Shown piece after piece: positions 40,374 to 40,598 of a DNA stretch of 64,000 nt. The notes beneath the pieces were generated by a model. It ran no database searches. It was not told the origin of the DNA and saw nothing but the letters and a program-made list of their open reading frames with translations. This DNA is from an uncultured Gammaproteobacteria bacterium (GTDB taxonomy: Bacteria > Patescibacteriota > Patescibacteriia > UBA9934 > GWF2-40-263): positions 424-64,423 of the forward strand of contig CAYNRK010000001.1 in assembly GCA_964399675.1 (NCBI GenBank), written 5' to 3'. Made by a program: the position numbers and the translations under genes. Every line of letters begins with the position of its first letter. The first letter of the stretch is position 1.

Positions 40374-40402
40374 TCTTGAAAAAAATCTAGATTTTTCATA
40401 CA
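40374..40402 (+). promoter_or_regulatory. Promoter-like TTGAAA ... TACAAT upstream of the candidate small RNA
   Basis: -35-like ttgaaa (40376-81), 15-nt spacer, -10 tacaat (40397-402). An alternative -35 tcttga gives a 17-nt spacer. Confidence 0.4.
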
Positions 40403-40409
40403 ATTTCAT

Positions 40410-40598
40410 ATGTAGAAGAAGTGATATTCCCTCTAAAGCTGCGAAGCGGGGTACGATTTCACTGAATCAAAAACGCGAGCATCCCTTGCACCTTTGGGTG
40501 CGAGGAAAATCTCTCTCCTCATGCTCAAACCTTCTGATTCGTTACTGTAATCGTGACCTTGTTTTGCAGCTTTAGGTGGAATATCGTTTTTTGTTTTG
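40410..40598 (+). ncRNA. Candidate approx 185-nt structured small RNA. Boundaries are approximate. It could be a 6S-like RNA or a structured rpoB leader/attenuator
   Basis: A 20-bp closing helix gatattccctctaaagctgc (40421-40440) / gcagctttaggtggaatatc (40564-40583) is extendable with G·U pairs (40441-50 with 40554-63) that are valid only on the + strand. A nested helix gagcat (40475-80) / atgctc (40520-25) encloses the hairpin ccttgcacc-tttg-ggtgcgagg. The closing helix is followed by gttttttgttttg. Confidence 0.4.

What the first reader, a model, noticed from the sequence alone, without database searches (positions are those of the whole stretch)
40374..40598. Candidate structured small RNA (approx 185 nt) with its own promoter and terminator-like end, upstream of rpoB
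A promoter-like TTGAAA…TACAAT (40376-40402) precedes a sequence whose ends form a 20-bp helix (40421-40440 with 40564-40583; one mismatch and one G·U). The helix is extendable by approx 10 more pairs using G·U wobbles, which is strand-specific evidence for a plus-strand RNA. It encloses a nested helix (gagcat/atgctc) and a 9-bp hairpin (ccttgcacc-tttg-ggtgcgagg). The closing helix is followed by gttttttgttttg. A separate strong promoter for rpoB lies downstream at 40711. The rod-like closed architecture and the size resemble 6S RNA. An rpoBC attenuator is the alternative.
Basis: seen in the sequence. Interest (0 to 1): 0.6.

Follow-up and report, generated by a model that had tools for sequence, protein, structure and literature searches.

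The report
New conserved small RNA beside rpoB
The flagged sequence is a real gene for a rod-shaped non-coding RNA of about 185 nt. It is conserved in uncultivated Patescibacteria (CPR) bacteria, matches no described RNA family including 6S RNA, and displays an almost invariant 13-15-base pyrimidine strand whose partner is unknown.

Summary
Window 40405-40600 (+) folds into a long rod (-81.9 kcal/mol, z = -9.1). A sigma-70-type promoter precedes it and a U-tract follows it.

It belongs to a family. I found 20 homologues: in every Uhrbacteria-type rpoB locus fetched independently, in metagenome contigs, and in a second Patescibacteria lineage where it lies between ileS and recO. Across 17 aligned members, 47 of 56 base pairs show compensatory changes. 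Pairing is 92.7%, against about 40% in slid controls. G·U outnumbers A·C 133 to 16, which fixes the RNA strand.

Stems vary freely, but the single-stranded AAAAUCUCUCUCCUC is exact or nearly exact. It sits as a one-sided bulge between two helices. The promoter is conserved in 17 of 20 members. One relative carries the gene inverted, and others carry it in unrelated contexts. It is therefore an independent, probably trans-acting RNA gene, not an rpoB leader.

The 6S interpretation is not supported. No Rfam match was found, including 6S, and there is no two-sided central bubble. Function is unresolved. My best inference is a stable scaffold that presents the pyrimidine strand to a conserved protein partner. 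Antisense pairing is the main rival. A separate conserved rpoB leader with a terminator lies downstream, at about 40795-40921.

The parts
40376..40404 (+). Sigma-70-type promoter of the RNA gene: -35 TTGAAA (40376-81), 17-nt spacer, -10 TACAAT (40399-404). The predicted start is about 40410-40412.
   Evidence: Consensus scan gives 10/12. A TTGAnn-16/17-TAnnnT sits at the same relative position in 17 of 20 family members.
40411..40596 (+). Predicted transcript of about 185 nt: a rod-shaped small RNA. The ends are inferred from the promoter and the U-tract, not measured.
   Evidence: Fold -81.9 kcal/mol, z = -9.1. Covariance model R2 scores 183.8 bits, E = 9e-45. The family alignments are A5 and A6.
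40415..40458 (+). P1, 5' arm of the closing rod. It contains the sequence-conserved GCUG box (40438-40441) and is purine-rich and G·U-rich.
   Evidence: Pairs with 40549-40592. Helix 1 has 31 pairs, 25 of them with compensatory changes, and 91.6% of cells are paired. The GCUG/CAGC pairs are nearly invariant.
40549..40592 (+). P1, 3' arm of the closing rod. It contains the CAGC box (40566-40569), and its 3' end runs into the U-tract.
40460..40469 (+). P2, 5' strand (ca-c-tgaatca). It is followed by the internal-loop strand aaaacgc (40470-76).
   Evidence: Pairs with 40535-40547. Helix 3 has 9 pairs, 8 with compensatory changes.
40535..40547 (+). P2, 3' strand. It is preceded by the internal-loop strand aaaccttc (40527-34) and contains a 3'-side bulge (ttac).
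40477..40482 (+). P3, 5' strand (gagcat).
   Evidence: Pairs with atgctc at 40521-26. Helix 4 has 6 pairs, 5 with compensatory changes, 95.8% paired.
40484..40505 (+). P4, the apical hairpin ccttgcacc-tttg-ggtgcgagg.
   Evidence: Helix 5 has 9 pairs, 8 with compensatory changes, 97.8% paired. The loop sequence varies between members (UUCG, UUUG, CUCA and others).
40506..40520 (+). Invariant single-stranded 15-mer AAAAUCUCUCUCCUC. It is held as a one-sided bulge between P4 and P3 and is the presumed functional site.
   Evidence: Unpaired in every member's fold. In 11 homologues found without using the motif: exact in 8 (L001, L239, L240, L242, L243, L245, L247, L248), 14/15 in L250, 13/15 in L253, and reduced to UCUCCUC in L252.
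40521..40526 (+). P3, 3' strand (atgctc).
40586..40598 (+). U-tract gttttttgttttg directly after the rod, giving an intrinsic-terminator-like 3' end. It partly pairs with the A/G-rich 5' end.
   Evidence: Relatives have either the same arrangement or a separate hairpin plus U-run terminator after the rod (L082, L084, L099, L248, L253).

Best explanation
This is an independent gene for a stable, rod-shaped non-coding RNA of about 185 nt. It defines a previously undescribed RNA family of Patescibacteria (CPR), seen in Uhrbacteria-type genomes and in at least one other lineage.

**Shown by sequence comparison**
- A sigma-70-type promoter drives it.
- The long closing helix P1/P2 pairs the 5' and 3' ends and is followed by a U-tract.
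- The helices P1-P4 are maintained by compensatory evolution.
- One 13-15-nt pyrimidine strand, (AA)AAUCUCUCUCCUC, is kept invariant. It is displayed as a one-sided bulge between helices P3 and P4.

**Inferred**
- Transcription from that promoter is inferred from the conserved promoter, not measured.
- P1/P2 with the U-tract serves as the terminator and probably protects the ends from exonucleases.
- The RNA acts in trans.
- The rod is a rigid scaffold, with sequence-conserved duplex boxes such as GCUG/CAGC.
- The invariant strand is the docking site for a conserved cellular partner. The partner is most likely a protein that binds single-stranded pyrimidines, so the RNA would work as a ribonucleoprotein component or as a decoy that titrates that protein.

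**Why a protein is favoured over full-length antisense pairing**
- The two ends of the 15-nt strand are tied together by P3 and P4, with only 0-4 nt opposite. A 13-bp duplex could not form without melting P3.
- No conserved complementary sequence was found.

**How sure each step is**
- A real, conserved structured RNA: about 0.95.
- An independent, trans-acting gene: about 0.8.
- The protein-docking or decoy mechanism: about 0.35.
For: **Structure**
- Fold z = -9.1.
- Two sequences alone give 17 compensatory pairs.
- Nine sequences: 38 of 56 pairs compensatory, 94.4% paired against 38-44% for slid controls.
- Seventeen sequences: 47 of 56 pairs compensatory, 92.7% paired against 37-45%, and 0 of 500 shuffles reach any of the measures.

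**Strand**
- G·U 133 against A·C 16.
- The plus-strand fold is 10 kcal/mol better.

**Independent transcription unit**
- Promoter conserved in 17 of 20 members.
- A U-tract or a separate terminator follows the rod.
- rpoB has its own promoter-like sites and its own leader downstream.

**Trans-acting**
- The gene is inverted relative to rpoB in L001.
- It lies between ileS and an Avd-like gene plus recO in L089, and between ileS and recO in L253. L253 was found through IleRS, not through the motif.
- A variant in L098/L083 lies before adk-map and is preceded by a hammerhead ribozyme.

**Functional strand**
- The 15-mer is exact in 8 of 11 homologues found without using it, while RpoB identity falls to 77-89% and the stems have diverged.

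**Copy number**
- Single copy per locus and in the 64-kb window.

**Against a nearby antisense target**
- No conserved complementary site in the window or in the related loci I scanned.
- Genes in the window mostly lack Shine-Dalgarno sequences.
Against: - No expression data. The transcript, its ends and its abundance are all inferred.
- No partner protein is identified, and 13 invariant bases is a lot for a typical single-strand-binding protein.
- The motif search that found 9 of the 20 members required the exact 15-mer, so those members say nothing about its conservation.
- Linkage to rpoB on the same strand in 14 of 15 Uhrbacteria-type loci could still reflect a cis or local role.
- Targets elsewhere in the genomes could not be searched. 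I held only a small part of each genome, a few kb to 64 kb.
- L252 keeps only UCUCCUC and scores weakly (27.9 bits).
Confidence: 0.45

Rival explanations
1. Antisense regulator. The exposed pyrimidine strand is a seed that base-pairs with purine-rich RNA (GAGGAGAGAGAUU-like, for example the few strong Shine-Dalgarno-type sites left in these largely SD-less genomes). It would thereby control translation or stability in trans.
For: - The strand is unpaired in all members and invariant.
- It contains CUCCUC, complementary to GAGGAG. C/U-rich seeds that target ribosome-binding sites are known from Gram-positive sRNAs such as RsaE/RoxS (my own knowledge, not tested here).
- The gene is independent and lies in varied contexts.
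Against: - No site with 3 or fewer mismatches in the 64-kb window other than the gene's own antisense strand. Such sites are not enriched over shuffles.
- No recurrent strong duplex site in the window and the 17 related loci I scanned, nor in the rpoB leaders.
- Start codons in the window mostly lack Shine-Dalgarno sequences.
- The ends of the strand are tethered by P3 and P4 with 0-4 nt opposite, so only about half a helical turn could pair unless P3 melts.
- Invariance across two deep lineages would require an equally invariant target.
Confidence: 0.25
2. A 6S-like RNA. The rod would mimic open promoter DNA, bind sigma-70-type RNA polymerase holoenzyme and sequester it. The conserved strand might serve as a template for a short product RNA.
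For: - Size of about 185 nt, rod shape, paired termini, own promoter and terminator, single copy.
- Sits next to rpoBC in one lineage.
- No paper in the searched library links 6S RNA with Patescibacteria or CPR genomes.
- 6S RNAs are poorly conserved in sequence (my own knowledge).
Against: - No Rfam 6S-family match at gathering score or at E<=10, even when only the 196-nt RNA was searched and in nine relatives.
- The defining central bubble, with both strands open, is absent. The largest two-sided loop is about 4-7 x 5-8 nt, and the 15-nt strand faces 0-4 nt.
- The central bubble with short flanking arms is the part of 6S-1 RNA that suffices for the RNA polymerase cycle (PMC8876501 abstract).
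- With the opposite strand nearly absent, the upstream and downstream helices cannot be spaced as in an open complex (inference).
- P1 has up to 27 uninterrupted pairs, unlike the bulge-interrupted 6S arms.
Confidence: 0.1
3. A cis-acting element of the rpoBC region: an upstream attenuator or insulator terminator, or an RNase III processing hairpin. It would set how much transcription enters rpoB, comparable to the rplL-rpoB attenuator and RNase III site of E. coli.
For: - Same strand and 170-720 nt upstream of rpoB in the window, L081, L084, L085, L087, L099 and in 9 of 9 independently fetched Uhrbacteria loci.
- Rod plus U-tract looks like a terminator.
- Long perfect duplexes are RNase III substrates (my own knowledge).
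Against: - It has its own conserved promoter.
- Several relatives add a second, canonical terminator after it.
- rpoB has its own promoter-like sites and a separate conserved leader with its own terminator.
- It is inverted in L001.
- It is unlinked to rpoB in L089, L253 and L098.
- A terminator or insulator role does not explain an invariant 13-15-nt unpaired strand.
Confidence: 0.1
4. A DNA-level palindrome: a miniature inverted-repeat transposable element (MITE), a cruciform, or an element linked to the replication origin or to DnaA. On this reading it is not an RNA at all.
For: - A long inverted repeat.
- A perfect DnaA-box sequence TGTGGATAA at 40597-40605, and ATCCAC repeats nearby, also seen in several relatives.
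Against: - G·U 133 against A·C 16 shows selection on one strand's RNA fold.
- 47 of 56 pairs are compensatory.
- Single copy.
- Conserved promoter and terminator.
- Cumulative GC skew rises through the region with no switch.
Confidence: 0.02

Closest known systems
6S RNA (SsrS; Rfam RF00013 and related 6S families)
   Same: - Length of about 150-200 nt.
- Rod-like, with paired 5' and 3' ends.
- An independent housekeeping-type gene with a sigma-70 promoter.
- Single copy.
   Different: - No covariance-model match.
- No two-sided central bubble.
- The conserved element is a one-sided 15-nt pyrimidine bulge next to the apical hairpin.
- The arms are long, nearly perfect duplexes.
- Sequence conservation is concentrated in one single strand and in duplex boxes, which is not the 6S pattern.
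Protein-titrating or scaffold RNAs (CsrB/RsmZ-type sponges; SRP 4.5S RNA and Y RNA as rod-shaped ribonucleoprotein RNAs)
   Same: - A stable helical scaffold displays short, invariant, unpaired motifs.
- The helices vary by covariation while the docking motifs stay fixed.
- The genes are trans-acting and independent.
   Different: - The motif is pyrimidine-only (UC repeats), not GGA.
- There is one main motif rather than many repeats.
- No SRP domain IV features: the apical loop is variable and not GNRA, and there is no Rfam SRP hit.
- No partner protein is known.
C/U-rich seed sRNAs of Gram-positive bacteria (RsaE/RoxS type)
   Same: - An unpaired C/U-rich motif that could pair with purine-rich ribosome-binding sites.
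- Own promoter and intrinsic terminator.
   Different: - Much longer, with a 45-55-bp closing rod.
- The motif is a tethered bulge, not a hairpin loop or linker.
- The host genes largely lack Shine-Dalgarno sites.
- No targets were found.
E. coli rplL-rpoB intergenic attenuator and RNase III site
   Same: - A hairpin-rich element with a terminator upstream of rpoB, on the same strand.
   Different: - Here the element has its own promoter.
- It is found inverted, or far from rpoB, in relatives.
- The true leader and terminator of rpoB is a separate element downstream (about 40795-40921).

Membership tests
6S RNA | Match to the Rfam 6S covariance models (RF00013 and related families). | tested here: not met
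   No 6S hit at gathering score in the window. None at E<=10 in 40200-41000, in the 196-nt RNA alone, or at E<=5 in nine related loci.
6S RNA | A large central bubble with both strands unpaired (an open-promoter mimic), flanked by a closing stem and a terminal stem. | tested here: not met
   In the consensus structure the 15-nt single strand faces 0-4 nt. The only two-sided loop is about 4-7 x 5-8 nt. The importance of the central bubble is taken from PMC8876501.
6S RNA | About 150-200 nt, rod-like, with paired termini. | tested here: met
   About 185 nt. P1 pairs 40415-58 with 40549-92, and this is conserved in the family.
6S RNA | Binds sigma-70 RNA polymerase holoenzyme and templates a product RNA. 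| not testable with these tools
   Needs biochemistry.
Bacterial SRP RNA (4.5S) | Domain IV: conserved symmetric and asymmetric loops next to a GNRA apical tetraloop, and an Rfam SRP match. | tested here: not met
   No SRP hit. The apical loop varies between members (UUUG, UUCG, CUCA, UCAC, GUA and others).
Cis-regulatory leader or attenuator of rpoB | Always upstream of the regulated gene, on the same strand and in the same transcript. | tested here: not met
   Inverted in L001. Between ileS and recO in L089 and L253. Own promoter in 17 of 20 members. A separate rpoB leader exists downstream.
Independent sRNA gene (promoter plus structured transcript plus intrinsic terminator) | A conserved promoter at a fixed distance, and a terminator at the 3' end. 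| tested here: met
   TTGAnn-16/17-TAnnnT ends within about 0-16 nt of the model start in 17 of 20 members. A U-tract directly follows P1, or a separate hairpin plus U-run does.
Independent sRNA gene | A discrete transcript seen experimentally. | not testable with these tools
   No transcriptome data were available.
Conserved structured RNA (general) | Base pairs maintained by compensatory substitutions beyond what relatedness alone would give. | tested here: met
   47 of 56 pairs have double changes, against 18-27 in slid controls. 92.7% of cells are paired, against 37-45%. 0 of 500 shuffles reach the observed values.
MITE or DNA palindrome | Multiple dispersed copies, and symmetry with no strand bias. 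| tested here: not met
   Single copy. G·U 133 against A·C 16.

The most novel reading that the evidence does not exclude
The RNA is a housekeeping ribonucleoprotein RNA specific to Patescibacteria (CPR). It would regulate the core transcription machinery (RNA polymerase, NusA or Rho) by docking it on the invariant (UC)n strand. That would make it a functional counterpart of 6S RNA built on a different architecture, in a radiation where no 6S RNA has been described. Its conserved placement next to rpoBC in Uhrbacteria would then reflect co-regulation with polymerase synthesis.
Probability: 0.15. Interest if true: 0.85.

Novelty: new variant of a known kind. Interest (0 to 1): 0.62.

Why it matters
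CPR/Patescibacteria make up a large share of bacterial diversity, yet almost nothing is known about their RNA-based regulation. My literature searches found no paper on a 6S RNA or on structured small RNAs in this group.

This family has unusually strong comparative support. It is single-copy and occurs in at least two lineages. It also carries a 13-15-nt invariant single strand, which is the signature of an interaction with a deeply conserved partner.

Identifying that partner would reveal a regulatory or ribonucleoprotein system specific to these reduced-genome symbionts. At the least, the family deserves a new Rfam-type entry and would improve annotation of CPR genomes. The separate rpoB leader with its terminator adds a second candidate for how these organisms control RNA polymerase synthesis.

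Tried and rejected
1. **Rfam** at gathering score and at permissive thresholds, on the window, on the RNA alone and on nine relatives. Only chance-level hits appeared (mir-547, skipping-rope, Afu_182, all far below their cut-offs). No 6S, SRP, RNase P, tmRNA, leader or riboswitch.
2. **Repeat or mobile-element idea.** No other copy in the window.
3. **Viral origin.** The 15-mer alone occurs in more than 120 viral contigs. None of the 65 I searched with the model is a family member, so these are chance matches.
4. **Small ORF.** An AUG follows the 15-mer in the window and in some relatives. It is replaced by GCG, UCG or CAA in others and is part of the covarying helix P3. The 71-aa ORF at 40360-40575 has no Pfam hit. 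Rejected.
5. **Pairing of the 15-mer with the rpoB leader or nearby genes.** The best duplexes are weak (-4 to -13 kcal/mol) and fall at non-homologous positions.
6. **Intramolecular triplex or pseudoknot** between the pyrimidine strand and the purine-rich 5' arm. The sequences do not match, and the arm varies while the strand does not (inspection).
7. **BoxA-like reading of the 3'-arm bulge (CUCUUCG..AA).** It is present in only a subset of members and absent in the window RNA. Not pursued.
8. **Analogous rods upstream of rpoB in more distant CPR genomes** (L002-L007, L021; RpoB 53-69% identical). None were found, by the model or by fold scanning.
9. **Similarity between the P1 box (UUUGCAGCU) and the base helix of the rpoB leader (GUUUGYRGCU).** Noticed, but the orientation relative to the rest of each RNA is flipped. 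I treat it as unproven.
10. **Literature searches** for the motif and for CPR ncRNAs. Nothing relevant.

Full report
**1. The observation**

- A promoter-like TTGAAA (40376-81), a 17-nt spacer and TACAAT (40399-404) precede the element. This scores 10/12 to consensus.
- Window 40405-40600 (+) folds at -81.9 kcal/mol, against -44.3 +/- 4.1 for 200 dinucleotide shuffles. That is z = -9.1, and no shuffle does as well.
- The fold has these parts:
  - P1, a closing rod: 40415-58 with 40549-92.
  - P2: 40460-69 with 40535-47.
  - An internal loop: aaaacgc opposite aaaccttc.
  - P3: gagcat/atgctc, 40477-82 with 40521-26.
  - P4, the apical hairpin: 40484-505.
  - A 15-nt unpaired strand, AAAAUCUCUCUCCUC: 40506-20.
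- The rod is followed by gttttttgttttg.
- The minus strand folds 10 kcal/mol less well.
- The element is single-copy in the window.

**2. Organism and setting**

- Downstream lie rpoB (40955-44215) and rpoC. Upstream lie ftsK, recA and an ORF with no Pfam match.
- The closest RpoB proteins are labelled Candidatus Uhrbacteria or Patescibacteria, at 77-89% identity.
- The window is therefore from a CPR bacterium.

**3. It is a family**

*How the homologues were found*
- The closest genome in the species collection (L001, RpoB 77% identical) has a homologous rod about 800 nt upstream of rpoB, but on the opposite strand. It has the same P1-P4 layout, a different stem sequence, and the same 15-mer.
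- A metagenome pattern scan anchored on the 15-mer returned 38 loci. Seventeen carry the same rod. After removing identical copies these are 11 distinct sequences. Nine match the model (L081, L082, L084, L085, L087, L089, L093, L099, L109). L083 and L098 are a shorter variant. The other 21 loci are chance hits.
- That scan cannot test conservation of the 15-mer. I therefore fetched rpoB loci of ten further RpoB relatives (78-89% identical) by protein identity alone. Nine returned DNA, and all nine distinct loci carry the RNA upstream of rpoB on the same strand.
- The 15-mer is exact in seven of the nine, 14/15 in L250, and degenerate (UCUCCUC) in the weak hit L252.
- L089 has the RNA between ileS and an Avd-like gene plus recO. 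Its IleRS is at most 67% identical to any other.
- The relative fetched through that IleRS (L253) has the RNA at the same place. It has a TTGACA-17-TAGAAT promoter, a separate terminator, and the core AAUCUCUCUCCUC.
- L098 and L083 carry a shorter variant (closing helix, hairpin, 15-mer) upstream of adk-map. It is immediately preceded by a type III hammerhead ribozyme (46.2 bits; gathering score 48.5).

*Where it was not found*
- More distant CPR genomes (RpoB 53-69% identical) have nothing comparable within 6 kb of rpoB.

**4. Structure is under selection, on the plus strand**

| Alignment | Pairs with compensatory changes | Cells paired | Slid controls, cells paired | Slid controls, compensatory pairs |
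|---|---|---|---|---|
| 9 sequences | 38 of 56 | 94.4% | 38-44% | 5-13 |
| 17 sequences (model-aligned) | 47 of 56 | 92.7% | 37-45% | 18-27 |

- For the 17-sequence alignment, none of 500 column shuffles reaches the observed values.
- The alignment was fitted to the model, which favours the structure. However, RNAalifold recovered the same helices independently.
- G·U pairs outnumber A·C by 133 to 16. The strand that carries the 15-mer is therefore the RNA.

**5. It is its own transcription unit**

- A TTGAnn -35, a 16-17-nt spacer and a TAnnnT -10 sit at the same relative position in 17 of 20 members.
- The rod is followed directly by a U-tract (window, L001, L081, L093, L109, L239) or by a separate canonical terminator (L082, L084, L099, L248, L253).
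- rpoB has further promoter-like sites and its own leader (section 8).
- The gene is inverted in L001 and sits in non-rpoB contexts in L089, L253 and L098.
- Together these points argue for a trans-acting gene and against an rpoB attenuator.

**6. Comparison with known families**

- No Rfam 15 family matches. This holds at gathering score, at E<=10 on 800 nt or on the 196-nt RNA alone, and at E<=5 in nine relatives.
- A caveat: the tool's E-values are multiplied by the 4227 families, so only per-family E-values below about 0.002 would have been listed.
- Structurally, the hallmark of 6S RNA is missing. That hallmark is a central bubble with both strands open, which by itself suffices for the 6S-1 cycle (PMC8876501). 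Here the 15-nt strand faces 0-4 nt, and the only two-sided loop is small.
- With the opposite strand nearly absent, P3 and P4 cannot be held apart as the upstream and downstream duplexes of an open complex are. This is an inference.
- SRP RNA is excluded by the variable apical loop and the absence of a hit.
- I found no literature on this motif, on 6S RNA in CPR, or on CPR ncRNAs near rpoB.

**7. Mechanism**

*What is shown*
- A rigid, covarying scaffold.
- Sequence-conserved duplex boxes (GCUG/CAGC; GUACGAU/AUCGUG).
- One invariant, pyrimidine-only single strand with a (UC)n rhythm.

*What the strand does not do*
- It does not pair within the RNA.
- It has no conserved complement in the window, in the rpoB leaders or in the related loci I scanned.
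- The genes here mostly lack Shine-Dalgarno sequences, so a general anti-SD-type seed has little to act on.

*Geometry*
- The two ends of the strand are tied together, so a full 13-bp duplex would need P3 to open.

*My reading*
- I favour docking of a conserved protein that binds single-stranded pyrimidines, making the RNA a ribonucleoprotein component or a decoy (about 0.35).
- Antisense action comes next (about 0.25).
- 6S-like polymerase sequestration is at about 0.1.
- A cis role at rpoBC is at about 0.1.
- These are inferences. No experiment or transcriptome was available.

**8. Seen in passing**

- Between the RNA and rpoB lies a second conserved element. It is a leader that begins CCYCGUUUGYRGCUGAAYGGUCAACCGGRU and ends in a hairpin plus GUUUUUUGUUU about 35 nt before the rpoB start codon. 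It is present in at least 12 relatives and has no Rfam match.
- DnaA-box-like sequences flank the promoters.

**9. Verdict**

- "Structured small RNA with its own promoter and terminator" is correct.
- "6S RNA" and "rpoBC attenuator" are not supported.
- It is a previously undescribed, strongly supported RNA family of Patescibacteria whose function is still open.

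Noticed in passing
window 40795-40921 (and L081, L084, L099, L239, L240, L242, L245, L247, L248, L250, L252, between the rod RNA and rpoB): A second conserved non-coding element: an rpoB 5' leader.
- It starts with CCYCGUUUGYRGCUGAAYGGUCAACCGGRU.
- In the window it has a long-range helix GUUUGUAGCU (40802-11) / AGCUACAAAC (40870-79).
- It ends in a terminator-like hairpin (40893-40909) plus CGUUUUUUGUUU, about 35 nt before the rpoB ATG.
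- No Rfam match.
It looks like an attenuator or riboswitch-like leader that controls rpoBC.
   Followed up: partly
window 40597-40605, 40679-40703 (and L239, L248, L099, L087, L093, L243, L245): - A perfect DnaA-box sequence TGTGGATAA lies directly after the RNA.
- Repeated AATCCACT motifs overlap the TTGACA promoter-like sites upstream of rpoB, and similar motifs occur in several relatives.
- There is no GC-skew switch here, so this is more likely DnaA-linked promoter control than an origin of replication.
   Followed up: partly
L098 4058-4111 and L083 (homologous position): A type III hammerhead ribozyme (Rfam RF00008, 46.2 bits; gathering score 48.5) sits immediately upstream of a short variant of the RNA, before adk-map. 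This suggests that in that lineage the RNA's 5' end is made by ribozyme cleavage.
   Followed up: partly
window, start regions of about 38 ORFs: Almost no Shine-Dalgarno sequences upstream of start codons; the regions just before ATG are A/U-rich. Exceptions include the GC-rich ORF at 38594, which has GGAGG.
   Followed up: no
window 38594-40216: A 540-aa ORF with 62% GC in a genome of about 41% GC, and no Pfam domain. ORFs of about 350-550 aa, also without Pfam matches, occupy the same position upstream of the RNA in several relatives. Only weak N-terminal similarity was detected, in L099.
   Followed up: partly
L001 5240-5340 and 5540-5640: A direct repeat of about 100 nt lies between the inverted RNA gene and rpoB. 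It may mark the rearrangement that inverted the gene.
   Followed up: no
window 8392-18213 and 4673-8395: Two giant ORFs (3273 aa and 1240 aa) with many internal diverged repeats (families D3-D7, D9, D12), typical of CPR surface proteins.
   Followed up: no
L248 42-1446: A bAvd gene and a reverse-transcriptase gene (a diversity-generating-retroelement-like pair) lie about 2 kb upstream of the RNA in one complete Uhrbacteria-type chromosome. L089 has an Avd-like (PF05635) gene right after the RNA. This is probably coincidence.
   Followed up: no
window 40438-40446 / 40561-40569 versus 40801-40811 / 40870-40879: The P1 box of the RNA (AAGCUGCGAAG / CUUUGCAGCUU) resembles the base helix of the rpoB leader (GUUUGYRGCUG / CAGC..CAAAC) in several species. 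The orientation relative to the rest of each RNA is flipped. It could be a shared binding site for a double-strand-RNA-binding factor, or chance.
   Followed up: partly
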